Positions 1 through 49,915 of a stretch of DNA of 64,000 bases are shown here, in pieces. Numbering within the stretch: position 1 is the stretch's first letter; every line of letters starts with the position of its first letter. The notes beneath the pieces are model-generated. The model searched no databases, was not told the origin of the DNA, and saw only the letters and a list, made by a program, of their open reading frames with translations. The stretch is from Cenococcum geophilum (Eukaryota). The DNA lies in the NCBI GenBank assembly GCA_050273025.1, contig CP158635.1, forward strand, positions 7,192,001 through 7,256,000. The letters run 5' to 3'. Both the position numbers and the translations under genes were made by a program.

Positions 1-1903
1 GAACGCCTTATACTAGGACTTAAAATTACCTAAATCTAATAGCTTTAATAGGAAAATATAAACTAAGTATATAATAAAAATAATAAAAGAATATAAGGGT
101 CGCTAGAGACTTACTAGGGAAACGCTAGTTAAATATTTAGCTCCCTTATTATTAGTATATATATACTAGAAATATAAAAACTCCTTATTTAAAAAGGTAT
201 TATTATAAATAGCCTTATATATAACGTAAGGCTCTATAACTATAGACTCCGCCTAAAATAATACTATTGCTACGTATAGTAGGGACACACCTAATCCACA
301 TACGTAGTATAGGTATGCTGCGGCTACTATATAGGCCCCTATAATATAAGATACTACTTAAATTAAGACTAAATAAAATGCGTAAACTGCCACTAAAGCA
401 TATATAAGGCGTAGGAGAGAGAAGACTGTATTAAATACAGGAGACGGAAGGTAAGGGCTTAACAGCTACAGGAATAACTATATGCTAGGTTATATAAATA
501 AAAATAATAGGCGATAAGCTAGGGGGGCGTAGGTGCCTTTCTAGCGTTTCCTACCTTTAATACTAGGGGGCTAGGCTAGCTATCCTAAGCCTTAACGGGC
601 CAGAAGCGACGCCGCGCGATATTACTAGACTATATAGGGACATAAGGGTTATAGGGGACATAAGGGAGAGGACGCCCTATAGGAAGACCCTTATAAACAG
701 CTATAGCAAGCTTAAGACTAGGACAATTAAAAATTAGACTTAACGCGGTAAATATAATATTTATAGCCAACTCTTAAAGGGTATATAGCCAACTAGTAAA
801 AACAGGGGAAGAACTGAAAATAATAATAGATTTAGATATAGAAGCGCTAGTAGGAATATAAGATATAGGAATAGAAAGCTCTATATAAAATAAGTAGTAA
901 CTAGGGTGTAGATATAAAAGATAGAAGTTCTAAATATTCTAGAGAAAGTAGAAATAGAAGAAGTAAGGAATAAAAAAGAGGCGAAGGACCCTCACCGGGG
1001 GTCCGCTACCTATCTATTATATAGTATAACTATAGCAATACAAACCACTGTTTTGTAAGGCCCTTACTAGACAGCCTAAACCTAGAGAAATACTATATCC
1101 TTGCTATATAAGAGCCGTATTATAATACCTATATATAATTAACATACTGCCCTTAAGGATTCCAGCTCTTATATAAACTAAAAGCAGCTATACGCGTGTG
1201 CTTTATAATTAGCAAGGCTATTAGCCTATCCTTATAATTATAGTAGGCAGTTAACCTAGATATTAGTATAGATTATTAATATATATAACCCTAGGGTTAA
1301 AGGGGTCCTATAAATAGAGAATATTATATTAGTAATAAGCCTACTAGAAACCAAAGGCATAGAGTTTATCCTATTAGGAGATATAAACCTCTACTACCCG
1401 CAGTAGAGGGGTATCTATATTGCTGCTAAATAATAGGTAGAGTGCCTACTAAGAGCTATAGACACCTAGGGCCTTAAGCTAGCTACCCCCCTAGGAGTAA
1501 TTATATAGTAATAAGGCACCGCCAGAAGTATAATTAACCTTACATTTATAGACGAAGGCCTATATTAGAGACTTAAAAGGTATAACCCTAAAAAAGAATA
1601 GGTACTTATTTTAAATTATATCCCTATCTAAATATTAAGGCGTAACTAAATAGTAAAAGATATATAATAAGAAAGCTTAAGATAAACAGCTTCCTTAACA
1701 TAGTTAAATAACAACTTTAAGACTTAGAAGAAATCTACCCAATATTAAACGAGCGAGGCTTATTGGCTACCCCTAAGGAAATTGACTAAAGACTAAAAAG
1801 GATCTAGGCAGCAATTAAAAACGGGCTAGAAGAGCACTACCCGGTCTTAAAACTGGGCCCCTATACGCGATACGCATAGTCTATATAATGCGCGGTTCGC
1901 CAG

Positions 1904-2328
1904 TATAACGGAACCTTATAGCAAGAACTACGATAGGTTCGTCAATGGGCTAGGTGTGTAGGAAATGTAAGTACAAAAGTCAACAACATAATAACAACTG
2001 GTGGAGTGGTTGCCTAACAGATTAACTCTAATTATATTTTAAGAATCACTATAAGGAAGGAACTATCTAGGTAGGGACTAAGGGTCCTTAAATACACAAC
2101 CGTACTCCTAAGAAAGTTATTACTCTATCTACTCTATCTACTCTATTCGCTCTATAATAGATTTTATAGATTATATAGATTATATAGATTACATTATGTA
2201 ACTCTGCTTACTATTCCTTATTACATAGTTCTACGGGTTCTATCTTAGACCGTGCTTATATTAACTAACTAGCTTCTTCCGACTCCTCTCTAAGTAGTTA
2301 TAATATTGTACTTAAAGCGTCCGTAACA
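1904..2328 (-). repeat. 3' LTR of element A
   Basis: Direct repeat of 15826-16250, differing mostly by C>T/G>A; adjacent to the PPT. Confidence 0.95.
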
Positions 2329-2436
2329 CTATCTCCCTCCTCTCTATCTTCGTCCTCAAAGATACCTAGCATCTCCAGGTCGTTTACTAGAGGTATAATG
2401 TCCGTCTAATTAATTTGGTTAATATTGTTACTTATA

Positions 2437-3120
2437 ATACCTAAAGCACCTTCTTCTTCCTCTATAGCCCGTCGGTCTCATACTATTGCTATAATATTGT
2501 CTCTTAGTGAGATAATGCCATCTCCGTGTTCTCATTATGTGAAAGAGGGGCTGGTTTACGTTACGTTGGCAAGTCCTTTATCCTAGTAACTTTCCTCTTA
2601 TTCGGAGTACACTAAAGCGAATATTTAGTTATCCTATAACGTTCGCTCTATCTCTAATATTAAATATACGCGACCTATTACTCTTAATAGTCGTCTAGTT
2701 CCCTAATTAATTTATTTTAGGGTTTTATATTTAATCCAAGGCAGAAAAACTTAAGGGTAATCTTACCGTAGCGCTAGCGGAAGCCCATTGTCGATCCAAA
2801 GAATCTACTTGTGCCCTTAAGGCTTAGCAGTCTGCCTTTATAAAAGTTTAGTATCTTTAACGCGTTTATAAAAAGGTTCGCTCTAAGGAGTAGAAACTTA
2901 TAAAATAAGGTCTATAGGAACTAGGTAATAAAAGAACGGATTTTCTTCTAATAGAGAAGGAAATAGATCTAAGTAGTTCGGCAACTACTCTTCTTAGGTC
3001 CCCCTTAGGTAACTTATTCTTTGGCGATCCTTTTTTATTAATATTACCTAACCTAATCTCTTCTAATACTCCTATACCTTTCCTATAGCGTTCTTTAAAT
3101 TCTCTAGTAGCTCCTAGGTA
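2437..3120 (+). pseudogene. Antisense two-exon ORF inside element A: Zn2Cys6-like cluster followed by a coiled coil
   Basis: Frame from 2437 de-RIPs to MPKAPSSS..PSPCSHCVKEGLVC(x13)CSEC(x8)CDVRS. Intron 2666-2720 (RIPed GT donor, ctaat branch, tag acceptor) splits a TGG codon, and exon 2 stays in frame. Same structure in copies C and G. Confidence 0.75.
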
Positions 3121-4447
3121 GTCTTAGTGTAGCCTATCTATTTAACCTTATACTATTGTGGTGGGGTAAAATGGGCCACTACTTAGTGCCTTAGCATTTT
3201 CCTATATATATCGAGCCTTCGGCTTCTCTCCTTCTTCCTATTACAACCGACCGGGAATACATTCTTTCCTTTCTTCTTACTGACTGCTTTCCTACTGATT
3301 AATTACAACTAACTGACCAACCAACCGACCGACCGACAGACAAACAGCACTGTGACTTTCCTATCTAAGAGTGGTCGTACCCTCCCATATATTTTATGGC
3401 ATTCCATATAGGGATGACGGCAAGCTCTTTAGATTAGAAGTCTGGCATTTTACACACAACTATATACGCGTAGGAACATACCATAACTATAGAAGAACCG
3501 CTAGCTATAGAAGAACAACCAGCTGTAGAAGAACCGCTAGCTAGATAGACGAGACGAAAGCAGAGAACTAGGCAGTATCGGACAGTAAGGGGAACCAGGT
3601 AGTCCCTAAACAGAAAGACAGCGGAAAAGACAGATATTAGACTTAACGCATAGGCCAAAGAGTGGCAAAAAGGAGTGGCAAAGGTCTTAGAAAGTTACGT
3701 ATAAGGACGTTAAGCGAACTAGCAAGCCAATCAGACAGCTTTAACCGGCAGTTGGAGATACCCAATTTCTTCTACCTGCGCACGGATATGGCTAGAGCTT
3801 TATTAAAGATGCAGAGACAATAGGCAGCCAAGGGCCAATTAATTAGATGGAAATGAGATCTAAGGCATCTAGCAGCAGAGGAAGTTAGCGCTGCCCTTTA
3901 GGAACAGAAGAGAGAATACCAAGCAAGGTCGCAAGTACACGAGATCAGATCTGCCCTCGAAAGCTTCCTATTCTGGTTTAGCTTTATCTTTTTTTAAGTT
4001 ATCCAGATCGTGTTAGCGGCGGCTACAGAGGCGTTCCATGAAGAAGTAGATATAGGCAGAAGCGTAAGGCTTAGCAGCACCCTACCGCGTGGAGTAACGG
4101 TAGGCTAAAACAGACGGACGTATCAAGACCCGGCAGTAGTAGAAGATGGCGATTCTGTGCTCTCCCAGGAAGACCAACCTCCAGGCGTTAAGAAGCAGCT
4201 AGAAGGAATCGAAGCCTATACCTCTTTTGCTGAGTATAAACTAACACCAGGATAGCCGTCTAGGACACTATTACTTTAGGCGGCAATGCAAGCAGACCTA
4301 CTACAGCATTTACCCGTAATACCTAGGACCAATAACCCTCAGCAGATAAAGGACAAGAACCGTAAGGACCACCTACAAGCTCCCAAGGAAGCTCTAGATG
4401 CGTTACCCTATAACTAGCAGTTAACAGCTCGAGACAGGATCTACGTT

Positions 4448-5270
4448 ATGGTCTAGCCTATGCCAGCCCCAGGAACTGTTAGAACTCCGTACTTTATAGG
4501 ACAGGACGTGTTATAGTTTATCGAGCAGTATAAATGGCTATGCGTCCGACACTACGTAATAAGTAAGGAGAAGTACTAGGGCCTTCCGGAGTACTGCGAT
4601 TACTAGATAGGGATATAGATCCGAAGCTTGCCTAAGTTTATAGCTGGTAACTAGACGGAGCTTATAAGAAAGCTTAGGGCGGAATACTAAGGAAGTAACC
4701 AATTTCGACAAATGGAAACGGTAGAATTCTTGGAAGCCTATATATGGTAGTGTAGGGACAGTCCGCCAAGTAGCGTACGCGAGTACTATAGGCAGTTTAT
4801 ACTAATCTCCTAAAGGGTTACGCAGGCAGGCAATCTAGGGAACGCTTAGCAAGGGTACTAGTTTGTAAAAGGACTTCCGCTTAAATATTAAAGGCATACT
4901 ATGGCCAAAACGGGAGCTAATCTAGATAGACGAGAGTCCTTTAACTTCTATTAGTTATAGAGAGCTATAGAGAATAGGCTTAGTTTATATAAGGGCGCGG
5001 ATCGTCTATTAAAAATGGACCCCGAGGAGCAGAGCCTTCGTTAGCTGGTTGAGCAGTTCTATAATTAGCAGCCAGTTATAGGCAAAGATACTACCCTTTA
5101 ACCACCTACGATCTTTTAGCCAAATAAGATAGCTGACGCCTGTTAAGCCAGCCAGGAAACGGACCTAGTTGGACTAGGTGTACACGGAGGAGCCCTAATA
5201 CAGTAGCATTCACCCGCTATAGATTAAGCTATAGTTCAAAGCCTAGCATAAGGATATGGCCTGGCACTAG
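4448..5270 (+). pseudogene. gag-like ORF remnant of element B (boundaries approximate)
   Basis: De-RIPed MPAPGTVGTPYF.GQDVSQFIEQYEWLC...LPEYC...WTELVRKLRAEY resembles fungal Ty3 capsid N-termini. Stops are TAA/TAG, consistent with RIP. Confidence 0.6.
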
Positions 5271-8200
5271 GATACGAAAACTGGCAGAATAGCACCCGAC
5301 CTCTGTAAGACTCTTGATATTCGCAGGACTTCCGATATCCGCAGGACTTTTAATATCCGCAAGATTCTACTGCCTTTAGACGACCGCAGCGGGACGTACG
5401 GGGTTAGCAGGATGGCACGCGATCTGGCCCGGGCCGATGGACCTATTTTAGATGCGGAGGAAGTTACCGTTTTACCGAGCACAAATGTTAAGGCTTAAAG
5501 GATCTTATTTAGTAAGGATTTGTATATCTGTCTAATTAAGGAAGACTGGTAGCTGGGATACGCGATTAACCTGGACCTGAACTACCGTGGCTCGGCAATG
5601 AGGGACGATTAAAAAACATTAAGAACTGGCTTTGTATATATTAAGGAGCAGACCTAGATAGACTGAAGAAAGAATAGACATAGTAGCGGGCCTTCCATAA
5701 TAGAGTAGCGCTAAAGATTAGTGATAAGAAAAGTATAAACTAGGGGGACTACTATTAGAATCGCCTAACCCTTAAAGACAGCCGCGTAACTAGGACAGCT
5801 ATTAAGCTATAGGAGAGTAATATATGACTAGAAGACTACATGCAGATTAGGTCATAGCCTATAGAGAAGGCAGCTAAAGCTAGAGAGGACTACTATTAGA
5901 ATCGCCTAACCCTTAGAGACGGTTATTAGAGACGGTTATTAGAGGTAGACGCTTAAAGTAAACTCTATAGTAGGTATAGAATGTTTAACTAAGGGACAGT
6001 TAAGTTCTAAGGTAGGGGAGGGGATGTAGGTAACGGCCGTATAAAAGATTTCTATTTATTTGCTTATTTACTATATTTCCTAAAGCTCCGTTTTTATTTA
6101 CTTTCTTAATCGCGACGCGTTAAGACGACCTGCCGCAAAAATATTAGTTTAGCTTACCGTCTATTGCCGAGCTAATAGCGATTTTTTATCCCGGGGACGG
6201 AAAATCCTAATTAGTCCATTTAGCAATAGAGCCGGCAGAACTCTATACTGCCCCTAAAATTCAATAATACGCCAGCTGCATAATAAGAACGGCACTAAGA
6301 GCCTTAATTAATTGCATGGATATAGAGCTAATTATATAATATAGAGCCAGACATAGAGCTAGACGCAAAGCCTTAATTAAATAACTGCACGGATGCCTTA
6401 ATCAATCGAGCAACCGTACTAAAGCCACGACTGGTCAAAGAATTAAATCAAGCCAAAGCCTTGATATCAGCACGTCGCCGTCACTGCATTAAATCAGTTA
6501 AATGTTGTTAAATTAGAGCCTTCGACTGGGCCGACTTTGTTCCTTATTTAAATAACAGCTAATCGCAGCTCTGCCCTGCTACCCGAATTTAGTACTATAC
6601 CGGCTATATAACAAGAACAAACACCGCGGTAAGGAAGGGACCTATATATAAGAACAGCAGTATGATATTGGAAATAAGCACCGTGGAACCGTAAAGCAGT
6701 ATATAAAGAGGCACTAACAAAGATACTCTGCGAGAGATTGTATATAAGGCGCAGCTGACTACGTTAAGCTTAAACCATCCTTATGCGACTAAAGACAGAA
6801 CTAAGCCATATCTGGCCAAGCTAGTAAAGAACTTTATTAAGGATTATAAGGGGAACAGGAATTGGACGTATAGGAACCGATGCTTTTTCCTTAGAGATTA
6901 TCTTAATAAAAGGACTGTATTATAGACGTAAGGGCAAGGGATATATAACGGAGGTAGTTACAACAGCTGAGAAGCTGTTATTAGATGACAAAGAGACTGG
7001 AAGCAGAAGATAGTCCCTAAAAGGCTCTTAAGCCAGAAGAAGATCAAGGATATGTAAGTATACTGCCAGCAGCGGGATTAAAGAAGCAGCCATAAAAGCT
7101 TAAGGATATAGCGAAGAAGCCAAGAGCAAGGATAATTTAAAAAAGGAAGAAAGCAGCTGTTAAGGACGTCCTATAAAAGCGCTAGGCCTATTATAGTGGT
7201 TTAGAGGAAGCTACTGTTAGTGCTTATAAAGAAGAAAGTCTTAGGACAGGCCTCTGGATTAGACGTCTGGTGGACACTAAGAGCCTTAATTAACTACGGA
7301 TGCAGAGCCCTAATTAATTAACTATATGGATACAAAGCTTTGACAAAACGACTACACAGCCAGGGTCTTAATTAATTATCCGCAGATGCAGAGCCTACGG
7401 ATGTAGAACCTAGGTTATACGTGTAGCAGAAGATGCCTTAAGTTAAGCCAGAGCCTCAGTTAAATCCTAATTAGTTAAACGCTGCCTCTATAGTTAAGTT
7501 GTTAAATTAGAGCCTTCGGTCGGGCCGACCTAATACCCTATTTAAACGTTAGTTAATTGTATGTTGTCACAGTCAAATCGAATTAGTCACCGTCGCCGTC
7601 AGACGTCTTCAATTAGCAGTTAAAGATTCTACAATAGTAGACAGACAGGCACTAGGCCTAACTAGGAAATTAGTATACAGCTGACACAACGTTAGAAGCA
7701 GAGCTAATTAATATCTTAGAGCCTTTGCGGGAGCTTCTTCCCTTAACTATCCCCCCTTTATTAATTAATTACTGCCCGTCTTAACGCCCACGGATTAGTT
7801 AACCAGAACGATCTTTCCTGTAGATATAGATACGGAGCTTTATACGGAGTCTTACACGGAGTTATATATAGACCCTATGGATATAGAATATATAGGTGCA
7901 GAGCGTTAATTGGACAACAGTATGGCAGCTTAACTGGACGCCTATAGATGCGAAGCCTTAATTGAACGGCAGATGCGGAACCTTAACATCGGACATCTAT
8001 ACGGAAGCTTTAATTAACTGTCTATAAATGTAAAGCCCTAGTTATATATGCAGCAGAAGACACCTTAAGTTAAGCCAGGGCCTCGTTAGATCTTAATTAG
8101 TTAAACACCGTCTCCGTATTTAAGTTAGGATAGTTAGAGCCTTCGGCCGGGCTGACTTTTTACCTTAATCGAACGACCGAACGATTAGTTGCAGCACATT

Positions 8201-8809
8201 GTCGCCGACTAATTAGACAGTCTTTGTCCGACAGTTAAAGTAGGCATATAGGCACCCACGCAGACACGGACGTAGACTATGCAATGCAGAACTACTAATA
8301 TACAGCCAGATGCATAGTTAGCCGCATAGTTAGATGCAGAGCTATGCGGACGTAAAGCTTAGTAATATAGGGCCTGATGCAAAGCCACGGATAGAGCCTT
8401 AATTAAGAGCCGTATATGATGCAGACCAATGCAGAGCTAGGTACAAAGCCTTAATATTAAACGACCAGCCGAACTACTAAGTCGGGCCGTAGTCTCTGCC
8501 GTTTTAATTAACTGCCCTGCCGCCACCGCTACTGCTACTACTATTCCGTCCGGCTATTTTGTCCCTACTGTCTTAACCAACTGCTGTCTCTACCGACTGC
8601 TGTCTCTACCGTCCTAGATTTGTACCGCTGCTAGGTCTATTTACTGCTGGATCTGCTAGGTCTATTATGCCGTTCTATACTACTATTCCAACTGATCTAT
8701 TCTACTGCTGCCAACTAGCTGTTCTACCGCTGCCACTACTGCCATTGCTATTCCAACTGTTCCGTTCTATTGTTTTAATTGTTCTCCTACTACCGTTCTT
8801 ACTAACTAC

Positions 8810-8915
8810 TACTGGCTAACTGCTACCGACTAACTGCTACCGACTGACTGCTACTAACTAACTGCTACCGACTAACTACTACCGACTAACTGCTACCGAC
8901 TAACTGCCGCTACCG
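8810..8915. repeat. 14-bp tandem repeat (actaactgctaccg)n in element B
   Basis: About 7 directly visible copies. Confidence 0.9.
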
Positions 8916-9315
8916 AGATTTCTGCTACTAAAAGTTCTGCTGCTAGATGTCCTACTGCTTACTATATAGACTAAGTTTTTCTACCGACTGTTCTATTACT
9001 AATCGCTCTACCATTAACCATTTTGCTTTGTCTTACTGCGCTAACTATTTACTTTTTACCATTACTACTACCGTTACTGCTGCTACTACTGCTACTACTG
9101 CTACTGCTATTGTTATTTCTGGTTTACAGCTATTTTGGTTACCGCTAGTAGGAAGGACACTGTAGGATAGTTCTATAGGAGGGCTGAGGATGAGGTTACC
9201 TATGTTCTTTTAGGGATATGCTTTCCTTTTTCTATTCTGCTTTTGCTATTCTTTTATTTAGCTATTCTTCTATAGTATAGAATATTAGGGGACAACGTTC
9301 TTGGTGGGGGAGGTA

Positions 9316-9548
9316 TGTGGTGGGGTAAAATGGGCCACTACTTAGTGCCTTGGCATTTTCCTGTATATATTAAGCCTTCGGCTTCTCTCCTTCTTCCTAT
9401 TACGACCGACCGGGAATATATTCTTTCCTTTCTTCTTACTGACTGCTTTCCTACTGATTGATTACGACTGACTGACCGACCGACCGACCGACCGACAGAC
9501 AGACAGCACTGTGACTTTCCTATCTGAGAGTGGTCGTACCCTCCCACA
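9316..9548 (+). repeat. 3' LTR of element B
   Basis: Direct repeat of 3157-3389. Confidence 0.95.
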
Positions 9549-12500
9549 CTATATCTCGTCGTCAATATTCTTATAATTAACAATCTTTAATACTTACTAT
9601 TTGTCTTCTTCTTATCCTCTATACATGTCTGCTTTATAGACTGGTGGCTTAATATTCCTATATACTAGCTCTAGTATTACAATATGCTGTATAGGGTAGA
9701 TCTTTATTTTGGCTAGTAGGTTTAACTTAAATATAACTGGTAAAATCCTCTATATAATTTTAAAAGGTCCTAGTCTAACGTAGTCTAATTTCTTGCTTAG
9801 TTGTTAACTCTTAAAATTTTTATATAGTAGCTATATTTTATCTCCCTCCTTAAGATCTAGTCCCTTAGATCTCTTAGTATTATAGTACTTTTTCATTCTC
9901 TCTTATACCTTCTTTACTGATTCTATAAGGTCTGCATAAAGATTTATTAATGTCTTTATTCTCTCTTTAGCTATACTACTTATTTTCTTCACTTACTATA
10001 GTAACAACGATATTCTTAGCTCGTATCCGTAATTTGCCTTAAATAGTAATATACCTATTCCTTCTTAAGGTATTATATTATATGCAAACTATATAACTAG
10101 TAATAGTAATACTTAATTATTCTATGCATGATTGATATAATACCTTAGATACTACTTTAGTATCTAATTTAATCTTTCCGTTTAACCGTCTATCTATAGA
10201 TAGTATACGGTAGAAGTTGCTGCTTAAACTCCTTACTTCGCTAAGAACACTTCCTAGAATACTATTATAAATCTTAAATCTCTATCCGATATAATCTTGC
10301 TTAGTGCTCTATGTCTTATAAATACTTCTTTAACGTAGATTCTAGCGACATCTTTCGCTAAGATTTCTTCTATGTATGCTATAAAGTATCCCCACTTTAT
10401 AAGCTTATCTACTATTACTAAGATTACGTTATAATCTTATCTAGTAATAGGATCTTTTAATTTTAGCAACTTAATAATAAAGTCCTATAATATGACCTCC
10501 TATAGTCTCTCTGGTATTTTAATAAGTTGTAGCCCTCTATATAGCTTATACCTTGTTGGTTTATTCCTTTAGCAATCTAGATATTCCTTTATAACCTTTT
10601 TAGCTATCCTCTAGATTCTATTAATAACGTACTCCTCCTAGAGTCTCGACACTAAGCCCGTAGCTCTATTATGTCCTTAAATTAGTCCCCTATAGAAGTC
10701 CTCTACAAACTACTCTGCTATACTTTTTAGGATGTACTTCGCTTCTCAATTTTCGTATATATCTGTCTATAGATCTTCTAGCTATGCTTTTAGAATTCTT
10801 TATACCTAAAAGCTTTCTAGTATCTTATAGATTTTCTCTAGTTTATTATCTTTTCAAGTTACTATAATTTTCGGATGATTATACCTAATTAATCTATCTA
10901 TATCTTTTTGCAATAAAGCCCCTAATGGCTTTTCCTTATTTTATAGTTTAGCTTTATAGCTTAGAGCGTCTACCCACGTATTATCTATACCTTTAGTATA
11001 CTAAATCTTAAAATAGTATTCCGTAAGTATCTCTGCCTATCTAACCTGTCTTTAGTTAAGTTCCTTTATTATTAGGAATCCTATTAGGTTCTTATAATCC
11101 GTTTTAACTATAAATAGTTTCTCTATACCTTATAAAAATGCTCTCTATTTCTTTAATACTGTAACTATACCTAACAACTCTTTATTATAGATGTCATAGT
11201 TTAACTCCGGTGGTGTCATCTTTTAACTATAGTATACTACTAGGTACTATCTATCTTAATGCCTTTATATAAAGCACGCCCCTAGTATATAGTCTAATGT
11301 ATTTATTTCTATAACCGTCTCTAGTCCTAGTTAATAGATCTTAAGAACTGGCTCCTAGGTAAACAACTTTTTAACTTTCTTAAAGAGTTCTCTTTACTCT
11401 TCCCCCTATGCCTATAGTTCTTCTTTCTTTATTAACCGCGTAAATAGCTTAATGTCCTTTAACCATTACGCTATAAACCTTCTATAGTAATTGCAAAACC
11501 CTAGGAACAATCTTAACTATATAACGTTCTCTAGTTCCTACTAATTTACTATAGCCTTGATCTTTTTTAGATCTATACTAAGTTGGCCTAGTTTAATAAT
11601 AAATCCTACAAAATTGGTCTTTCTGGTAAAGAACTCGCATTTCTTAATTACTACTAGCATCTATTCTTCTTATAGTCTCTTTAAGACCCATTTAACGTGT
11701 TCCCTATATTCTTCCTCAGTTATTAAGTAGATAATGATATTGTTAAGATATACTATAATAAATTTATCTAAGTGTTCTCCTAATATATTATTAATACGCT
11801 TCTAGAACGTTACTAGTGCGTTTATAAGCCCGAATTGTATAACTAATAGTTTATATAGTCCTTTTTTTAACCTAAAGGCTGCCTTTTATTCGTCGCCTTC
11901 CTTGATCCTAATCTAATAGTACGCCCATCTCAGATCTATCTTTATGAAGATTTGCGCATTGCCTATCCTATCTTAAATTTCGCTAATTAAGGGTAAAGGA
12001 TACCTATCCTTCCTAGTAATGCTGTTTAACTATCTATAGTCAATATATAGCCTTAGTTTGCCATTCTTCTTTAGTACAAATAGTACTAGATAACCCGCTG
12101 ATAACTATAATAGTCTAATATATCCCTTTTATAGATTTTCCTAGATAAACTCTTTTAGCGCTCTACCCTCTTCTTTAGTAAGCTTATAGATTAGAAAGAA
12201 CCTTAGACTTATTCCTAGTTCTAACTCTATTTTATAGTCCTATGCTATATATTTTAACAGCTTTTCACTTTCCGGTGACTATAGTTTCTTACTATACTTA
12301 TAGTATCTCTTTAGTACATAGCTTAGTCCTTTTTCTATTTCTTTATAGGTTACTCCTACTTAGTACTATACTAACTTGGCTTATTATTATATCTTACGGC
12401 GTTAAGTATCCCTAATATTAACCTAACCTGTAATCTAATTAATTCTTAGATTATATTCCTGTAACCAAGGTATGCCTAATACTGCCTTATCCTGTCCTAA

Positions 12501-15500
12501 TAGTAGGATATTAAAAGACATCTTAATTTGTCTTCCTTTAATAGTTATCTAAATAGGTCCTATTTTAAGATTAATAATCCCTCCTCTATAGGTTATTAGA
12601 TCTCCTAAAATTATAACTAATAGGTAAAATTACTCCTTTTATCTATAAGGTAGCCCTATTCTCTTAACTACTATTAATAAGATATAGTTTCGCGTTACTC
12701 TACTATCTATTAGCGCTTTAAACTGCTAATCTTGCTAATTAATCCATAAATTTAGGTATCGTCCTTAAATTCCTTTAAGGGTCTAAAGCTCTACTACTAG
12801 CTCCCTCTAGTCCTATAGGCCTCTACTTTTCCTAACTATTAGCTGCTTAATCTTAGTGCACTTAGCTTACTCTTTAGCTAATACCTAGTTCGCTTTTTAT
12901 CTTTTATATACCATAAACACATATTTTCTAGGCATTCCTACCACTATCGTCTATCTAAGCATTCTTCTGTAAGGAATCTTCCTAGTTAAAGTACTAAACT
13001 TCCTTCCTTTTGGATTTCTATTAGATGCCATCTATATATATATTTGGCATTTCTGTACTATTACTCGTCTATTATCCGGTATATCCTTATAGGGTATTTC
13101 TAATCCTTTTCTTTTAGATTCTTATATATTTTGTATATATCGTCCACGTACGTAATCTATAATATCGTATAGTATACTAAGTACTTTAGGTTAACTCTTA
13201 GCTCGTCTTTATCCCTAAGTTTAAACCTTTATTATATTAATCTAAACGTTGCAACTTTATTTGTAGGTATTAAAATACGTCTCTTACTTCTCTAGTCCTC
13301 TAAACGTTCCTTTAGATTCTTTAATATTATAATTAAGGCTCCTTTAATATGCGTTATAGCCTTCTTTATAATCGGGTAGTCTTAGATAACTTTTTTATCC
13401 AACCATATATAGAAATCTTCCCACTTATTATTGTGCCTTTGCCTATACTACTTTTAATATAGCTACTAGAGTATATACGGTCTGTCTATAAAAAAGTATC
13501 TTTTTATTACTATATTGTAACAGCCCTTTATATATTATTCCTTGAACCTAGTTAAAATCCCTAAATCCTCTTTATCTTCTAGTTTGGTAAGCCACTTGGC
13601 TCTTAATATACCTACTCTTAGCCTATTAGTGATTCTTTATACTAGTGCTCTATCCTTTATATATCCTAATATACTAGATCTCTTATCTAGTTTCTATTCT
13701 TACTATATAATAATTCTTTACCTAAACTCTTTTATAGTTTCTTTTAGTTTACGCCTTACGCTCTAATCCTTAAAGTCGTCTTGCTTCTTAATCCTAATAT
13801 TAACTTTTTAATCTTTAGTCCGAATACTTTATTTAACTAGTAAATCCTCTAGGTTTATATATTTATCTCCTAGTCTGATTGCTATTTATGCTGTAGGTTC
13901 TCTAATCTATAAAGAAGCCCCTTACCTCTTATCTGTGGGTGTCCTAATTTATACTCTAAATTCTTAACCCCTTAGGTTCTTTAATCCCGAGCTTGCTTCT
14001 AACTTAAGCTTAGCTCTAGCCTTAGTCTAACTAGGCTTACTTAGTGTCCTTATCTCATCTTAAGAGTCCTAGATCTCACTTATCTCATCTTAAGAATCTT
14101 ATGCCGTTAGGAATTCTTATCCCGAGCTTATTTGTATATCTTTAAACTAAGCTGCTACTCTACTCTATTGGTTTCTGTCCGTTATAGGTCCTTAAGCTTA
14201 CCTTATCTTATCTTAAGAATCTTAGTTATCTCTTATCTCGCTATAAGAATCTTAAGCCTTTGGCCTTTTACCTTTATTAAGTGCCGAAGTAGTTTACTAT
14301 TTTACTTCTCTTATGTCTTATAAAGCGATAGACATTGTATCTAGTGGGGTTTTGATCCCTACTAATGTTCCCTATTCTGTAGTAGAATTATCCTCTACCT
14401 CTAGTATAATATCTCTAAGGTCTACTCGCTCCTAGTAAGCGGCCCTTATTGCCTTATTGTTACAAAATATTTCGCCTAGGTTAAATTTATCGTCCTTAAT
14501 GTCTAATCTGTGAACTAGTTTATTAGTTCCTCTATATCCTATAGGTACTAGCTCTTATAGCTAATAGCTTACGCCGTACTTAGCGTCCTTATAAATTTAG
14601 TATATGTTATTATAACAAAATATAAAACTTCTAATTAAACACTTTTTTATTCCTCGTAGTATATTGTCGTCCCTTTATACGTATATATTGTCTGCTAGTC
14701 TTGTGCCTTTTACTATATAGTAACTCTACCCACTTCTATAGTTTTTAACGTAATAACCCTGTTTTCCGCAATTTATATAAGCTCCTTCTTTAAACCATTT
14801 CTCTTATTATAGAGTCCGCCTAAATATCTTCTACTATTAAAATCCCTAATTTGGCCTCTACTTTTTGGACCTTTAATTACTTAATCCTTATCCTCTAGGT
14901 TTCTATAGTTTGCTCTATTTCTTATAGGCTTCTTTAGTACTACTTAGGTCTATTAGCTCTGCGCTATACCATAATTTCTAACTTAGCTTTTATTATTGCG
15001 TACTCTGCGCCTTATATAACTATAGAACTCTATCCTAGCCTCTTTTAGCCTGTTCCCTTTAATAGATCTAATTATTAATCTTAATCGCCTAATTTATTAG
15101 TTCCCTTAGGGTATCCGTATCTTCTATTAGGATAATTACGTCCTAAACTTTAGCCTTAAGTCCCTGTTTATACTATGCTATAAGCGCCCTATTATTCCAC
15201 TCTACTTATATTGCTAGTGTCTGGAACTATATTGTATACTTAATTACTAAAGTTTATTACATAAGGTTCTGGAGTTTTTTTTTTGCTATAGTTATTTCTT
15301 CCGGGTCTTTAAACATCTATATTAGTCGTTTTGTAAATCCTTCCTAACTTAAGAACATAAATCGCACGTCTTAGTTAGTAGTTATTATTCCGTTTGCCTA
15401 TATCTCTATAAGGTAAGGTTTAAACCACTTAAGTGCTTTTCCTAATAAGAATAGTTCTGTATAGGCTATCCAATCTACGGGTATAGGTAACTTTACTCCC

Positions 15501-15825
15501 TCCTATAAGACCTTAAAATGCATCTGTATAAGGAATCCTTTAAGCTTTAACCTTTCTCCTATAAATCTCTCAATTAATAGTAGCTTAATCTTTGCTGCTC
15601 CTATCCCATTAAGTCTTTCTTCTAACACTATATTGTTAGCTATTAGCTAGTCAACTATTTCTTATAGCTGTCCGACCGTCACAGGTTGCTATAAGTTAGT
15701 ATCCGCCATACTAGTGTTACCTCCTATCCCTAAAGTAGTTGCTACCGTTAATGGCGTCGTGGTGGCTGCTTTTGGTGGCATGTTGTTCGACTTCTTATAT
15801 TAATACCGTAACTAGGTAGTGATTG

Positions 15826-16250
15826 TGTAACGGAACCTTGTAGTAAGAACTACGATGGGTTCGTTAATAGGCTAGGTGTATAGGAAATGTAAGTATAAAA
15901 GTTAATAACGTAATAACAACTGGTGGAGTGGTTGCCTAACAGATTAACTTTAATTATATTCTGAGAATCACTACAAGGAAGGAACTATCTAGGTAGGGAC
16001 TAAGGGTCCTTAAATACACAACCGTACTCCTAAGAAAGTTGTTGCTCTATCTGCTCTATCTGCTCTATTCGCTCTGCGATAGATCTTATAGATTATATAG
16101 ATTATACAGATTATATCACGTGACTCTGCTTACCATTCCTTATCATATGGTTCCACGGGTTCCATCCTGGACCGTGCTTATATTAACCAACTAGCTTCTT
16201 CCGACTCCTCTCCAAGTAGTCGTAACATTGTACTTAAAGCGTCCGTAACA
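15826..16250 (-). repeat. 5' LTR of element A
   Basis: tgtaacggaacc...gtccgtaaca; less RIPed than its partner LTR. Confidence 0.95.
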
Positions 16251-21276: not shown

Positions 21277-23995
21277 CTAGGATATATAATTATAGTATTA
21301 GAATAAACTACTTTATAATTATTAGGCCATAGAGACGTATTAGCCGTAACTAGCTTGGCGCAGGCGAGGCGCAGGCGAGGCGCCTATAAAACATAGTCGC
21401 CCCATATTAGAGAATAGCAGAATTTAGTTCTATAGTTCTACTTTATTAAGAACTAGATACCTATTGCATTCCGCTACTATTGTTATGTTACTATATACCC
21501 TAAGGACCTTGGCGTCCTAACAGTACTAAATTCTTATCCCTTTTTAGGGGTAGTGGCCTAACAACACAGTGGTTTGCAAAGGCTACGACTATATAGCAGT
21601 AACCCTCTGTCGAGAAGACGACCTATATTTATTAACTATATCGCAGCCTATTGACCTAATGGCGAGACGCAGGCGTACTAGCGTAGTGCGTACTACTAAG
21701 TCTGGGAATTAGCCTTAGGATAATATAGGCGAACCTATATTGTTCTAGATAGAACTAGAAGCTATAGGCGAAGGGGATATATAGGAAGAAATATAACGGC
21801 TAGAGAACGAGAAGCTACAACTCCTAGAGTAAAGAAAACTACACTTGCTTAGGGAAGAGGTAGAAGTGCTAAGACGGCGTTAACGCGGCGAGGTAATGTC
21901 GACTCCCGTTCTTGACCTATCTCTATAACCTTAAATAATCCTATTAAAGTACTTAGGGGGTAGCCTAATGCATTTAAGCCTTAAGCGGAGGGCTACTAAT
22001 ATATTAGGCGCCCTGTTAAAACAGGCCGTTAAAATAAAGAAGATTGCTTTGTATTATGGCAAGTCTATATAAGAGCACTAAGACTTCCGTAATAGCTTAA
22101 AGCTAGCGTTCTACCTAGAGCGCGACGGCTTTATGGATAAGGATACTAAAGTTGCGTTTACTATATAATATATAAAGGGGACCAACTAAACCCTTTGGCT
22201 ATAGTATAAAGATAACTATCTAGATACGTAGTTTACCTAGGAAGAGCTTATAGAATTCCTACTTAATTAGATTAAAAGTCCTATTAATTAAGAACTCTAT
22301 ATAGCCCTAACCTATGCGAGGGCAATATAGCGAACTAATTAACTAGTAAATAAGTTTACTACTTACCTAACCTCCTTAGAAGTGTAAATTAATCCTCCTT
22401 ATAATATAAAGTATTTAATAATATATCTGTTCGTAAAGCTGCGGCTAGAGCTACGGGTTACTATTACTAACTATTAAGAATTCCCTTAAACTTAAGACCA
22501 GCTAGTTTCCCTAGCTGCCCTATTAAAGGAAAACTAGAAGAGCGCAAGCGCCCTATAGGGTAGAAGTAATAGGCATACCGCGAACTCAAATATAAAAACC
22601 ACCTAGTTAGGTAATTTAGGGAAAGCGGACTCTAAAACTACCGCCGGCAACTTAATGGTAGGGTAAAGTAATACTGCCGAGGGTTTAACTTAGCCTAAAG
22701 GAAACTGCTTAAGGTGTGGGTAGCTAGGATATTAATAGCGATAATATAAAGAGCTATAACGGAATTAACTACCGCTAAGCAGTGTAAACGCTACCTCTAT
22801 ATTAGGAAAAGATAAGCGCCCTTAGACCTCCTTATAGCTATAGGGTGTAAGCTCCTACTAGATTATAAGGAAGCTATTACTGTCTTAGGTAAAGTCCTTT
22901 TTAAGTAGATCTGGAAGGAGACCTTAGTAATACTTAATATTGGTGCCGAAGTAAATATAATTAACCAGCGATTTACAATAGAGTGTAACTTTAAGACACT
23001 AGATATAGAATTACCTACCTACTTCTGGTTAAATAAAACTTAGGTATATTACTATAAAGCCTATAAGGTACTATTATAAATAAAGGACAGCTGGGGCAGG
23101 ATTAGGGAAGTAACCCTTATCTGCTATAGAATGGCTGATATATCTCCCCCTGTTACCCTAGGTATACTAGGGTTAAAAAAGGCCTAACTTCTTATTAACT
23201 GCGAGGCGAAGGCGTAGCGATAGAAGCTAGACGGCCCGTCCCTATTACTATAAACCCCTAAGGGTTTTACGGAGTCTCTCTAGAGGAAACCTAGGGTCTT
23301 TGCCCTAGTGATTACTGGATTAATACCTAGTAAATAAGACGACGGTAGCTTACTAGTCCTTCCCCCATAGTTAAAAAAAGCTAGCGATGTCTTCTTATAT
23401 AAGGAAGCAGGAAAGCTACCCTAACACTATTAAGGCGACTATGCTATTGACCTAAAAGAGGGATAGAAGGTCCTATATAGACTGCTTTATAACCTCTTAG
23501 TTAAGGAGCTAGAGGTACTAAGGGAGTACTTAGACGACGCCTTAGCTAAAGGCTGGATCTAATTAAGTACTAATCCCGTAGGGGTACCTGTCCTATTTAT
23601 ACCTAAAAAAGATAGGAAGTTGCGGCTCTGTGTAGACTATAGAGGCCTTAATAAGGTGATAATTAAGAATTGTCTCGCACTACTATTAATTAGTAAGACC
23701 TTAGACCGCTTAGTAGGTTTTAAAATCTTTACTAAGTTGGACCTAACAAATGTGTACTACCGCCATTATATCCGTCGGGGCGATAAGTAAAAGACGGCGT
23801 TCCGTACGCGTTACGGCCATTTTAAGTATTGGGTTTTACCTTTTAGGTTAACTAATAGACTAGTAACCTTTTAGGGCTACATTAATCAAGCCTTATTAGG
23901 ACTAGTAGACGTCTTCTATATAGTCTACCTTAATAATATTCTAATTTTCTCGGAAAATCTAGAGGAATACTGGCGCTACGTACTAGAAGTGCTAT

Positions 23996-24188
23996 TGTAA
24001 CGGCTCGAACCAACGAACAAATGTCTTGACGTAGACTTGAACAAATGCTTCTAAGACGAAGCGAACGAATGCTGTATTACGAAGATATCAAGGTGAGGAG
24101 CAAGAGAAGGTGGTGAGGCGACGTCTATATACACATGCCAAGTCTTAAGCGAACCCCTGACTAGGTGACGCGCCCCAGCGCCGTCACA
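23996..24188. mobile_element. 193-bp solo LTR inserted in the RT of element E
   Basis: tgtaacgg...ccgtcaca termini; TSD gctat at 23991-23995 and 24189-24193. Confidence 0.92.
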
Positions 24189-34900: not shown

Positions 34901-37309
34901 ACGGAAAGATTAAATTAGACGCTAGAGCAGTATCTAAGGCATTATATTAATCATATATAGAACAATTAGGTATTACTATTACCAGTTATATAGTTTGCAT
35001 ACAATATAACACCTTAAGAAGGAATAGGTATATTACTATTTAAAGCAAATTACGGATATAAGCTAAGAATATTATTATTACTACGGCAAGCAAAGAAAAT
35101 AAGTAGTATAGCGAAAGAAAGAATAAAGACGTTAATAAATCTTTATATAGACCTTATAGAATTAGTAAAGAAAGTATAAAAGAGAATAAAAAGGTACTAT
35201 AATGCTAAGAGATCTAAGGGACTAGATCTTAAAGAGGGAGATAAAGTATAGCTACTATATAAAAATTTTAAGAGTTAACGACTAAGCAAGAAGTTAGACT
35301 ATGTTAGGCTAGGACCTTTTAAAATTATATAAAGAATTTTACTAGTTATATTTAAGTTAAACCTACTAGCTAAAATAAGAATCTACCCTATATAGCATAT
35401 TATAATGCTAGAGCTAGTATACGGGAATATTAAGCTACTGGTTTATAAAGCAGACATGTATAAAGGATAGGAAGAAGACAAATAGTAAGTTTTAAAGATC
35501 GTTAGTTATAAGGACGTTGATAATAAAATATAGTATAAAGTAAGGTAGATAGGCTATAATGAGACTACCTAGGAACTACTGGAAAATTTAAAGAATGCTA
35601 TAAGAAAGGTATAGGAGTATTGGAAGAGATTAGGTTAGGCAGTATTAATAAAAAAGGATCGCTAAAGAATAAGTTACCTAAGGGGGACCTAAGAAGAGTA
35701 GTTGCCGAACTACTTAGATCTATTTCCTTCCCTATTAGAAGAGAATCCGTTCTTTTATTACTAAGTTCCTATAAACCTTATTCTATAAGTTTCTACTTCT
35801 TAAAATAAACCTTTTTATAAACCTTCTTAAGACGAAGCAACTAAGTAGACGCCGTAATGCGAGTATTTAGGGCCTTTTGTTCCGCATTATAAGAACGTTC
35901 TAATTTAGTAAGGGCTTAAGACAGTTTACTATCTAGCCGCGCAGTAGTAGATTAAATATAAGACCCTAAGACAAATTAATTAGGGAACTAGATGACTATT
36001 AAAAGTAATAGGTCGCGTATATTTAGTATTAGAGGTAGAGCGAACGTTATAGGACGAATAAATATTTGCTTTAGTGCACTCTAAGTAAAAGGACAGTTAT
36101 TGCGAAGATAGGTTTGCTAACGCAATATAAACTAACCCCTCTTTTAAATAGTAAGAATACGGAGATAGTATAATCTTACTAAAAGATAATATTGCAGCAA
36201 TAGTGCGAGCACGACGTTAGGCGTGTAAAGAAGAAATTACTTTAGGTATAATAAGTAACGATATTAACTAAATTAATTAGACGGACATTATACCTCTAGT
36301 AAACGACTTAGAGATATTTTAAATCTTTAAGGACGAAGATAAAGAGGAGGGAGATAGTGTTACGGACGCTTTAAGTACAATATTATAACTATTTAGAGAG
36401 AAGTCGGAAGAAGCTAGTTAGTTAATTTAAGTACGGTTTAGAATAGAGCTAATAGAACTATATAACGAGGAATAATAGCTAAGGTTATATATTATACTAC
36501 GTGTTAAACGAGAGAAATGGGAGGAACTTACGTACCTTACGTATAAGACGTATATTACGTATAAGAAGGATTTTATAGGAGTACGGTTGTGTATTTAAGG
36601 ACCCTTAGTCCCTACCTAGATAGTTCCTTCCTTATAGTAATTCTTAGAATATAATTAGAGTTAATCTATTGGGCAACTACTCCACTAGTTATTATTTCGT
36701 TGTTAACTTCTATACTTGCATTACCTATATACCTAGCCTAATAATAGGACCCATTGTAGTTCTTACTATAAGGTTCCGTTACACATTAAGGTTAGCCGTA
36801 TCCCCGCTAGTAACCCGCTAGCGCTTAGCCCTATTAATAAGGATAAGTAGCTTATTTAGGCGGCTATAGAAGGCCTTAGGGACCTAGTCTATTAGCCATT
36901 AAAACCTAAACTAACGCACTTAGACTTACTAGTTGATATAACTTATTTAGTTATTAGTAGTACCCGTAATTGTAGTTAGCCTACTTGCCGTAGGTGGCCT
37001 GCCTAGTAGTGGCTATACGTTTAGCGTAGCGGAGGTAAATTAGTTTAAGTAAGGCTAGGGAAGCACCTTGCGAACGACAAGGAAGCTTTAACGGCGTTTA
37101 GTAGGGTTAGTGACAGCTATAAGCTAGTATAAAGAATACTTATGGAAGGTTTACTAGTAGGTAGACCGACAGCTTAGCGCTTGCGATTTATAGTTAATTA
37201 GAAATCGTAAAGAAGGCAAGTTATAGGCTAAATAAATTAAAATGGAATTGGAAGGGAAATCTAATGTTCTACCTAGGTAGGAACTTCTACCTTTATAGAT
37301 CTCTATAAG

Positions 37310-38935: not shown

Positions 38936-39533
38936 ACTTACTTCCTATATCAATAAATATACTATAGTTAGTAGTTATCCCATCTAATCTATCTTAAAGA
39001 GGTTAACTTATATTCTATACTACCAAATATACTATAGTTAGTAGTTATCCTATCCTATCCATTTTAAAGAGGTTAAATTACTTCCTATACTACTAAATAC
39101 ACTACAGTTAGCAGTTATTCTATCTTATCTATTTTAAAGAGGTTAACTTACTTCCTATACCACTAAATATACTATAGTTAGCAGTTATCCTATCTAATCT
39201 ATCTTAAAGAGGTTAACTTTTATTCTATACTACCAAATATACTATAGTTAGTAGTTATCCTATCTTATTTATCTTAAAGAGGTTAACTTATAAGCTATAC
39301 CACCAAATATACTATAGTTAGTAGCTATCCTATCTTATCTATCTTAAAGAGGTTAACTTATTTCCTATACTACTAAGCATACTATAGTTAGCAGTTATCC
39401 TATCTTATCCATCTTAAAGAGGTTAACTTATATCTTATGCCACTAAACGCACTATAGTTAGCAGTTATCCTATCTTATCTATCTTAAAGAGGTTATTTTA
39501 TATACTATACTACTAAATATACTATAGTTAGCA
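38936..39533 (-). repeat. 70-bp tandem array (~8.5 periods); each unit carries splice-donor, branch and acceptor motifs on the minus strand
   Basis: Exact 70-bp period (ggtta at 39001, 39071 ... 39491). Minus-strand unit reads gtaagt...gctaac-tatag/tgtag followed by 20 nt. Confidence 0.93.
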
Positions 39534-48205: not shown

Positions 48206-49915
48206 TCTAAGATTTACTATAAAGAAGAGAAACTATTTATAGAGACCGTATGTCCTTAAATATATAACTTCTCCCTATAGTAAAGGTTCAGTACGTTAGA
48301 ACGTTAGTATATTAATATATTACGTTCCTACGTTCCTACGTTTTTATGTTTTAAACTTATAACGTAACTTGCCATATAACTTAGCTACCCCTTATTCTAT
48401 AGCTTAATTAGTTCTAGTATCTCCTATATTATCTTAACTAACCTATTTATATCTCTTTTTAGTAGTCGCACTACTGCCAATATAAGGTCCATAACACTAT
48501 CCCCCTTCTCTTTATCTTTATCCTTAAAAATATCTCCTATCTCTAAGTCGTCTATTATAGGTATAGTATTCCTATTTTTAATTTAATAACCTTTATTATT
48601 TCTAATGCCTCCTATTAGATCTTTTGCATCTAACTATTATAACTAGCTAGTAATATTTATTCTTTCCCTTAGTAAAGTTATACTGTCTTATTCTTATTAC
48701 GCGGAGAAGAAGTTAATATATATTACAATTATAGCTCTATCTAGTTACTAACCTTCTTTCTATACTAAATATACGCGGGCGAACATGCGGTTGTCTTATA
48801 ATGTTTAATCTATCTCTAACGCTAAGTATATACGTCTTATTATTCTTTATAACTGTTTAGTTTCTTATCTAATTTATTATAGGGTCGCGCGTATTAATAG
48901 CGGCTAAAAAACTAGAGAGTAAGCTGGCTAAGGCCCTTGCTAAAGTTTAGCGTTATTCTAATAAGGTGTCTTAGGCTCTAAAAGCTTAACTAGATGCTTA
49001 TGCTCGCCTAGGCCGTCTAGTAAAAGTGCGTAAAAAGGTACGCTTAAAGAAGTTGCGTTTAGTAGAGTAGGGTCTATTTAAATTTAAGGCTAAGGAGGCT
49101 AGAAAGGGTTTTAGTTAAGAAAAGGTCGAAACAACTAATATACCAATAGTAGATCCTTTAGATAATTTAGCTTATTTATTACCTTTAACTAATCCTTTTA
49201 TCTTTAGCTCCTTCTTAATATTACCTAACCCGTTTTCTTTTAATACTCCTATATCTTTTTTATAGCGTTTTTTTAAATTTTATAGTAGTTTCTAGGTAGT
49301 CTTATTATAGCCTATCCACTTAACCTTATACTATATTTTATTATTAATATCCTTATAACTTATAATTTTTAAAACTTACTATTTGTCTTCTTTTTACCCT
49401 CTATATATATCTACTTTATAAACTAGTAGCTTAATATTCCTGTATACTGGCTCTAGTATTACAATATGCTATATAAGGTAAATCTTTATTCTAGCTAGTA
49501 GGTTTAATTTAAATATAACTAGTAAAATCCTTTATATAATTTAAAAGGTCCTAGTCTAATATAGTCTAACTTCTTACTTAATTGTTAACTCTTAAAATTT
49601 TTATATAGTAGCCATATTTTGCCCCCCTCTTTAAGATCTAGTCCCTTAGATCTCTTAGCGTTATAGTACCTTTATATTTTTTCTTATACCTTTTTTGCTA
49701 ATTCTATAAGGTCTATATAAAGATTTATTAGTATTTTTAATTCTTCTTTAGCTATACTACTCATTTTCTTTACTTATTATAGTAATAGCGATATCCTTAG
49801 CTTATATCTGTAATTTGCTTTAAATAGTAATATGCCTATTTTTTCTTATAGTGTTGCATTATATATAAACCATATAACTAGTAATAACAATACCTAATTA
49901 TTCTGTGCATAATTA

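What the first reader, a model, noticed from the sequence alone, without database searches (positions are those of the whole stretch)
2437..3120. Family-A Ty3 elements carry a spliced antisense Zn2Cys6-like plus coiled-coil gene
Seen: between the 3' LTR and the end of pol, on the opposite strand, is a frame with C-x2-C-x6-C-x13-C-x2-C-x8-C. Most Cys codons are RIPed TGY>TAY, but C1 is intact in A and C5 in copy C. A 55-nt intron splits a Trp codon and a heptad-like exon follows. The layout and intron position recur in C (~36250-35570, minus) and in the diverged G (~48605-49290). Known: the GAL4-type spacing is C-x2-C-x6-C-x5-12-C-x2-C-x6-8-C, and an antisense gene (brtn) is described in Botrytis Boty-like elements. 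Inference: an element-encoded DNA-binding regulator, whose intron survives retrotransposition because it is antisense.
Basis: partly seen in the sequence, partly recalled or inferred. Interest (0 to 1): 0.72.

Follow-up and report, generated by a model that had tools for sequence, protein, structure and literature searches.

The report
Spliced antisense gene in fungal retrotransposon
A fungal jumping-gene family carries, written backwards behind its polymerase gene, a real spliced gene for a small protein that looks like a miniature GAL4-type gene regulator; the three copies here are mutated beyond use, backwards extra genes at this spot are already known, and what they do is still open.

Summary
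Confirmed, with corrections. Three RIP-damaged Ty3 (chromodomain-type) elements carry an antisense gene between the 3' LTR and pol. The genome holds many more copies: all 40 scored of 3142 candidates matched. Intact relatives keep six Cys (C-x2-C-x6-C-x13-C-x2-C-x8-C) and read through the split Trp. A copy elsewhere in this genome is spliced at the 55-nt GT..AG intron in 3 of 4 RNA runs laid. RIP-free transversions pile up at third codon positions, so the protein was under purifying selection. Additions: a second 54-nt intron that removes the first start codon (spliced in 2 runs, retained in 1); the frame ends at 3088, not 3120; its tail overlaps pol's chromodomain. The cluster resembles Zn2Cys6 (best solved-structure hit LEU3, E 0.004; 14 of 14 weak Foldseek hits) but misses the Pfam cut-off and does not conserve GAL4's CGG-reading lysines. 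Most likely an element-encoded transcription regulator; binding is untested. The layout is known (Botrytis brtn, plant aORFs); homology to Brtn was not testable. This scan noted the same kind of gene 41 times in at least 6 genomes.

The parts
1903..2328 (-). 3' LTR of Ty3 element A; the antisense transcript probably starts near its inner end
   Evidence: 90% match to 15825-16250; in copy L053 an RNA record starts 30 nt inside the LTR
2329..2344 (-). purine-rich tract next to the 3' LTR (likely PPT), inside the leader of the antisense gene
   Evidence: sequence
2393..2446 (+). upstream 54-nt intron (GTA..AAG) that contains the first start position; spliced or retained
   Evidence: matching joint in copy L053 in runs X6 and X12, retained in X1; GT donor in 59 of 60 copies
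2437..2665 (+). coding exon of the long form: basic N-terminus and helix, second Met at 2515, six-Cys cluster 2527-2637 (five of six Cys codons read Tyr in this copy; internal stops)
   Evidence: intact homologues P0001, P0003, L061
2666..2720 (+). 55-nt intron splitting a Trp codon; donor reads AT in this copy
   Evidence: joint 1723>1779 GT..AG in copy L053 in 3 of 4 runs; GT donor and CTGAC branch site in L061
2721..3088 (+). last coding exon: long helix (coiled-coil-like), acidic Ser/Pro linker, tail overlapping pol; stop 3086-3088
   Evidence: helix 77-151 in the P0001 model; natural proteins end here; third-position excess
3050..3156 (-). C-terminal part of the pol chromodomain, overlapped by the antisense tail and 3' UTR
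   Evidence: Chromo E 0.0039 and SH3_Tf2-1 E 3e-9 in the same frame of copy L053; frame in A printed
3157..9548 (.). another LTR element nested in A, splitting the chromodomain
   Evidence: 231-bp LTR pair 3157-3387 / 9316-9546
10236..15796 (-). RIP-broken gag and pol of element A
   Evidence: tblastn with intact L061 gag and pol: 88 and 63 stops
15825..16250 (-). 5' LTR of element A
35598..36249 (-). same gene in element C (intron 36020-35966); C5 intact
48605..49265 (+). same gene in diverged element G (intron 48828-48882); all six Cys positions read Tyr

Best explanation
This is the fossil of a genuine accessory gene of a fungal chromodomain-type Ty3 family. A promoter in or beside the 3' LTR drives an antisense mRNA of about 0.8 kb (after splicing) that ends within the chromodomain region of pol. 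The 55-nt intron is spliced; a 54-nt upstream intron is spliced or retained, giving a short protein that begins at the cysteine cluster (172 aa in the A type) or a long one with an extra basic helix (198 aa). Because the introns face away from the genomic RNA, reverse transcription copies them intact. The protein is built like a miniature GAL4-type factor: basic N-terminus, divergent six-Cys binuclear zinc cluster, long pairing helix, acidic tail. Most likely it binds DNA as a dimer and controls the element's own transcription through the LTR (activation more likely than repression, given the acidic tail). Shown: gene, splicing in a sister copy, selection, cluster motif. Inferred: zinc binding, dimer, DNA binding, target, direction of control. 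The copies in this window are dead.
For: Natural proteins read through the splice point: P0001, P0003, P0031, P0035. RNA-run contigs identical to genome copy L053 skip the 55-nt intron in X1, X6, X12 and the 54-nt intron in X6, X12; they stop at L053 2225-2229, and the pol end beyond has no depth in X1 and X12. Transversion-variable columns among 11 subfamily representatives at codon positions 1/2/3: cluster 10/4/22 (p 0.0006), N-terminus 10/6/18 (p 0.014), helix 21/21/56 (p 1e-6), against 8/5/8 in the intron; position-2 to four-fold rate 0.17, 0.26, 0.38; all exon length differences are multiples of 3. An un-RIPed element with open gag and pol carries the intact exon (L061). A family at 20-35% identity keeps the six Cys, the N-terminal helix, the long helix and an acidic tail. 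Its profile hits LEU3 first (E 0.004), then PUT3, HAP1, LAC9 at E 0.14-0.6. All 14 Foldseek matches of the P0001 model are Zn2Cys6 proteins (E 0.7-9.4); the exon model overlays the LAC9 cluster over 33 of 33 residues at 1.8 A (Z 2.0). UniRef names member P0168 a Zn(2)-C6 fungal-type domain protein.
Against: No member reaches the Zn_clus cut-off: 5 of 22 proteins scanned hit it at all, best 16.5 of 21 bits. No fold hit is significant, and 12 unrelated chains rank above LAC9. The two residues that match GAL4's CGG-reading lysines (positions recalled) are basic in only 9 of 22 members each, and the second is Gly in 8. The RNA comes from a sister copy that is itself broken (2 stops, both Met codons read ATA), from runs picked because they hold it, kept as contigs that show no strand; the one raw-read run laid (about 12% read) had nothing on the gene. 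The linker (14/15/10) and tail (4/4/8) show no significant third-position signal, and the representatives are related, so the p values are optimistic. The genomic context of the distant family members was not seen.
Confidence: 0.55

Rival explanations
1. Same real gene and zinc cluster, but the protein works against silencing or at another step: it binds the element's chromatin or a host partner to keep copies unmethylated, or helps nuclear import or integration, and is no transcription activator.
For: The DNA-reading positions of GAL4 are not conserved. Half of the protein is one long helix. PMC7264820 (text parts 1 and 2 of 3 read) suggests nuclear, accessory-protein roles for antisense ORFs of plant elements.
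Against: The order cluster, pairing helix, acidic tail is the GAL4 plan, and the Zn2Cys6 proteins hit here are solved mostly as DNA complexes.
Confidence: 0.27
2. The antisense RNA is the working part (pairing with the genomic RNA to tune silencing); the protein is a passenger captured from a host transcription-factor gene.
For: The transcript is complementary to the genomic RNA over its whole length, and a copy that cannot make the protein is still transcribed and spliced. PMC7264820 raises this route.
Against: Protein-level selection in three regions and frame-keeping indels; six Cys kept across members only 20-35% identical.
Confidence: 0.1
3. The antisense frame is the shadow of a sense-strand coding frame (a long tail of pol or a third ORF).
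For: A sense frame is open across exon 1 into the LTR for at least 164 codons in L061 and 177 in L053, in register with pol in L053, and shares third positions with exon 1. The true stop of pol could not be placed.
Against: In exon 2 the variation falls on second positions of that sense frame; in exon 1 the antisense second position is the most conserved; the intron shows no periodicity. Splicing signals are on the antisense strand. The sense peptide hits no Pfam family.
Confidence: 0.04

Closest known systems
[quoted passage not shown] 2011, not held; known here through passages in PMC7264820, PMC8365987, PMC4227169, PMC5987419)
   Same: Extra antisense gene between pol and the 3' LTR of a fungal Ty3 element with a chromodomain. 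One Monilinia transcript resembles both truncated Pol and BRTN (PMC5987419 passage), which suggests the same closeness to the pol end.
   Different: No passage read gives Brtn a cysteine cluster or a function. No protein named Brtn came up or the look-ups, so homology is untested. That brtn is spliced is recalled, not read.
GAL4-type Zn2Cys6 transcription factors (PF00172; GAL4, LAC9, LEU3, HAP1, PUT3, Pho7)
   Same: Six Cys in two C-x2-C pairs with x6 first loop, followed by a long helix and an acidic tail; top sequence-profile and Foldseek hits.
   Different: Below the Pfam cut-off, x13 middle loop in this clade, CGG-reading lysines not conserved, extra N-terminal helix, only about 200 aa, and encoded by a retrotransposon.
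Plant antisense aORFs (maize Grande gene23, rice RIRE2, Silene Retand, PvRetro13) and retroviral antisense genes such as HTLV-1 HBZ
   Same: Antisense gene between pol and 3' LTR with its own promoter; Grande GENE23 is nuclear; HTLV has an antisense promoter in the 3' LTR (PMC7264820). That HBZ is a spliced bZIP regulator is recalled.
   Different: Different hosts and unrelated proteins; none is described there as a zinc cluster.
DUF3716 (PF12511), found in proteins of the Zymoseptoria class II transposon REP9
   Same: Cys-rich fungal domain carried by a mobile element (PMC8232023 passages); weak hits to P0022 and P0139 (E 0.009, 0.005).
   Different: Hits are below the cut-off (16.4 and 17.2 of 22 bits); REP9 is a DNA transposon.

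Membership tests
Ty3/Gypsy LTR retrotransposon, chromodomain type | Two direct LTRs around gag and pol | tested here: met
   LTR pairs for A and C, partial for G; gag and pol matches
Ty3/Gypsy LTR retrotransposon, chromodomain type | pol order protease, RT, RNase H, integrase; Ty3 capsid | tested here: met
   Pfam on intact relative L061; window copies match its pol at 58-62% over 879 aa
Ty3/Gypsy LTR retrotransposon, chromodomain type | Chromodomain at the end of integrase | tested here: inconclusive
   Chromo E 0.0039 (17.5 of 25.1 bits) in broken copy L053; no Chromo hit in L034 or window copy C
Zn2Cys6 (PF00172) | Six Cys as C-x2-C-x6-C-xn-C-x2-C-x6-8-C | tested here: met
   P0001, P0003, P0022, L061: x6, x13, x8; not in the window's own broken copies
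   13 in this clade; 8-12 in distant members
Zn2Cys6 (PF00172) | Pfam gathering score of 21 bits | tested here: not met
   5 of 22 natural proteins hit, best 16.5 bits; 0 of 5 broken exon read-throughs
Zn2Cys6 (PF00172) | Basic residues in the first loop that read CGG (positions recalled from GAL4) | tested here: not met
   Basic in 9 of 22 at each position; Gly in 8 of 22 at the second; 2 of 22 fit the recalled PROSITE-like pattern
Zn2Cys6 (PF00172) | Binuclear cluster fold | tested here: inconclusive
   14 of 14 Foldseek hits are Zn2Cys6 but E >= 0.7; 10 of 14 rows shown for the exon model; LAC9 33 residues, 1.8 A, Z 2.0
Zn2Cys6 (PF00172) | Dimerising coiled coil after the cluster | tested here: inconclusive
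   Helix 77-151, pLDDT > 93, generic coiled-coil matches at Z 7-7.5; no dimer model obtained
Zn2Cys6 (PF00172) | Zinc binding and sequence-specific DNA binding | not testable with these tools
   needs bench work
brtn-type antisense gene | Antisense ORF between pol and 3' LTR, transcribed on its own | tested here: met
brtn-type antisense gene | Sequence homology to Brtn | not testable with these tools
   paper not held; no named Brtn protein returned

The most novel reading that the evidence does not exclude
Fungal chromodomain-type Ty3 elements widely encode their own miniature GAL4-type transcription factor on the antisense strand, unrecognised so far as a zinc-cluster family, with an alternatively spliced leader intron that switches between a long form with a basic helix and a short form without it. 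This would be a fungal counterpart of retroviral regulators such as HBZ or Tas, acting on the short tandem repeats in the LTR.
Probability: 0.35. Interest if true: 0.75.

Novelty: new variant of a known kind. Interest (0 to 1): 0.52.

Why it matters
Antisense extra genes behind pol are known in plant elements and in Botrytis Boty, but their function is unknown (PMC7264820). Here the protein has a recognisable plan, intact natural relatives, RNA-level splice evidence and a selection signal, so a concrete test exists: does it bind the LTR and change its activity? If so, simple LTR retrotransposons of fungi carry retrovirus-like self-regulators taken from the main fungal transcription-factor class. 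It also warns annotators that many small 'Zn(2)-C6' hypothetical proteins may be transposon genes. The eight literature searches run (open-access library only) found no description of a zinc-cluster antisense gene in a fungal Ty3 element; the brtn paper itself could not be read.

Tried and rejected
No de-RIPed consensus was built; codon states were counted per copy and natural intact relatives used instead. Pfam on broken exon read-throughs: nothing useful. 'Stop in every copy' as a test of a natural stop failed, because RIP fixes stops even at the chromodomain Trp; the end at 3088 therefore rests on natural proteins. Viral-contig scans with P0001 and P0099: no loci. The rest of the L061 contig was not available, so exon 2 and the pol stop of an intact element were not seen; L061 is permuted (gene beyond the LTR upstream of gag), probably a collapsed LTR, tandem or circle. 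The wide fold search with the whole model returned only generic coiled coils. ESM Atlas: Ascomycota clusters at 0.84-0.91, one auto-named Zn(2)-C6; leads only. No homodimer prediction was obtained, so dimerisation has no verdict. LTR repeat blocks did not track protein subfamily by eye. L052 was dropped from the selection test and counts because its downstream part did not align; L038 duplicates L031; a first run with a coordinate slip was redone. Supplements of PMC8365987 held as text had no brtn mention; its figure S1 could not be seen and may bear on the Brtn comparison.

Full report
Setting. The window is repeat DNA with strong RIP signatures throughout, from a 178-Mb genome in 7 contigs; the host was not identified beyond a RIP-competent fungus. 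Element A lies on the minus strand: LTRs at 1903-2328 and 15825-16250, gag 15796-12800 and pol 12866-10236 by tblastn with an intact relative, and another LTR element nested at 3157-9548. C (plus) and G (minus) are related elements.

Observation. The + strand frame from 2437 has six Cys/Tyr positions spaced x2-x6-x13-x2-x8, a 55-nt intron (2666-2720) in a Trp codon and a helical exon; C and G repeat it. All 40 scored of 3142 candidates matched the stretch in the genome. Across 60 copies (58 fetched loci, one of which is A, plus C and G; L052 and the duplicate L038 left out) each position is Cys in 16-50 copies and otherwise Tyr, bar one stop; one copy (L053) has all six; none has an open spliced frame. 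Half of the loci were chosen for likeness to an intact protein, which inflates the Cys counts. The donor is AT in A, C and G and GT in 5 of 60.

Intact relatives. A profile of 16 broken exons found 25 proteins among 8000 scored. P0001 and P0003 have all six Cys and read straight through the split Trp, as do P0031 and P0035. Of 4 metagenome loci, L061 is un-RIPed, with open gag and pol bearing Ty3 capsid, protease, RT, RNase H and integrase domains, the intact antisense exon, a GT donor and a CTGAC branch site; the contig ends at base 54 of the intron and the order is permuted through the LTR. A full-library search gave 172 proteins at E <= 0.001, of which 150 were listed, including full-length members of 156-237 aa at 20-35% identity that keep the cluster, the helix before it, the long helix and an acidic tail. 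Two carry organism names, Circinaria calcarea and Aulographum hederae. Their genomic context was not seen.

RNA. For copy L053, 24 runs were listed and 4 laid. Contigs with 0 or 1 differing letters skip 55 nt (GT..AG) in X1, X6 and X12 and skip 54 nt upstream (GT..AG) in X6 and X12; X1 retains that upstream intron. Records span L053 1357 or 1422 to 2225-2229. The pol end beyond has no depth in X1 and X12 and one diverged 151-nt piece in X6; X1 also has an unspliced piece from another copy. The raw-read run X21, about 12% read, has nothing on the gene. The runs were selected as holders and contigs show no strand, so orientation rests on GT..AG. The upstream intron maps to window 2393-2446 and contains the first start position, so splicing it leaves the second Met (2515) as start. 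P0003 shows the like jump against L061. L053 itself is broken, so this proves the transcript structure, not a protein.

Selection. To avoid RIP, only transversions were counted, among 11 subfamily representatives. Variable columns at positions 1/2/3 were 10/6/18 (N-terminus), 10/4/22 (cluster) and 21/21/56 (helix), against 8/5/8 in the intron; position-2 over four-fold rates were 0.26, 0.17 and 0.38. The linker (14/15/10) and tail (4/4/8) gave no significant signal. Exon length changes were multiples of 3 in 10 of 10 comparisons. Representatives are related, so p values are optimistic. A sense frame shares third positions with exon 1, but the position-1/2 pattern and exon 2 favour the antisense protein.

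3' end. Sixteen natural proteins end at the tail matching 3085, so the stop is 3086-3088. The opposite strand there is the end of pol: SH3_Tf2-1 (E 3e-9) and Chromo (E 0.0039, below cut-off) in L053. The tail is therefore probably conserved because of pol. Pol's own stop could not be placed, since RIP fixes stops in all copies even at conserved Trp codons; two internal codons of the antisense frame are likewise stops in all 32 A-type copies.

What the protein is. The P0001 model (pLDDT 91.8) has a helix at 13-27, two short helices in the cluster and one helix at 77-151. The family profile hits LEU3 best among solved sequences (E 0.004), with PUT3, HAP1 and LAC9 at E 0.14-0.6 among 19 hits up to E 1. 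All 14 Foldseek matches are Zn2Cys6 proteins, none significant; the exon-only model gives 10 of 14 rows and overlays LAC9 over 33 residues at 1.8 A, Z 2.0, below 12 unrelated chains. Pfam Zn_clus is hit by 5 of 22 proteins, never at cut-off, and GAL4's CGG-reading lysines (recalled) are not conserved. So it works like a divergent Zn2Cys6 protein but is not filed as a PF00172 member.

Mechanism. Best reading (0.55): an element-encoded transcription regulator acting on the LTR, made from a 3'-LTR antisense promoter in two splice forms, with introns preserved because the genomic RNA runs the other way. Rivals: anti-silencing or another accessory role (0.27), RNA-only function (0.10), shadow frame (0.04). 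Zinc, dimer and DNA binding are inferred.

Known and new. Antisense genes at this position are known in plant elements and in Botrytis and Sclerotinia Boty (PMC7264820, parts 1-2 of 3 read; passages of PMC8365987, PMC4227169, PMC5987419; PMC8232023 passages for DUF3716). The brtn paper was not held and homology is untested. Eight searches (listings seen) found no report of a zinc-cluster antisense gene in a fungal Ty3 element. This scan has 41 notes of the kind in at least 6 genomes and 108 matching notes in this genome; they are unchecked and not counted as support. Verdict: real gene, dead here, new variant of a known kind, interest 0.52.

Noticed in passing
L053:1387-2235 (G000:C7, about 816190-817040): This copy's antisense gene is locally less RIP-damaged (GC 0.45, 2 stops) than its own gag and pol (54 and 42 stops) and than other copies (5 or more stops). 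It is transcribed and spliced in field RNA runs with no sequence difference, yet it cannot encode the protein.
   Followed up: partly
window 2100-2220 and the matching LTR part of other copies; L061:5825-5886: The LTR holds two blocks of 8-10-bp tandem repeats beside a TATA-like box, at nearly fixed distance from the LTR end, with units swapped between subfamilies; candidate regulatory sites, no CGG triplet pattern noticed.
   Followed up: partly
L061:5917-6411 minus; L053 about 1799-1268 minus; window about 2300-2740 minus: A sense-strand frame is open across the antisense exon into the LTR and ends in an acidic stretch over the purine tract; it is in register with pol in L053. Probably a shadow frame, but the leader it covers is unusually conserved.
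   Followed up: partly
window 3157-9548: A different LTR element with 231-bp LTRs is nested in the chromodomain of element A, a few bases past where the antisense RNA ends in the sister copy.
   Followed up: no
L061:2570-5575 minus: The intact relative has a 1001-codon gag frame with a long extension after the zinc knuckle that ends in a Cys/His-rich stretch.
   Followed up: no
window 38936-39533, 59822-60419, 61455-61816, 62357-62685: Tandem repeat arrays seen in the self-comparison.
   Followed up: no
window 23404-25878 plus and 42523-43983 minus: More distant RT/RNase H/integrase remnants (31-39% to L061 pol), from other retroelement families.
   Followed up: no
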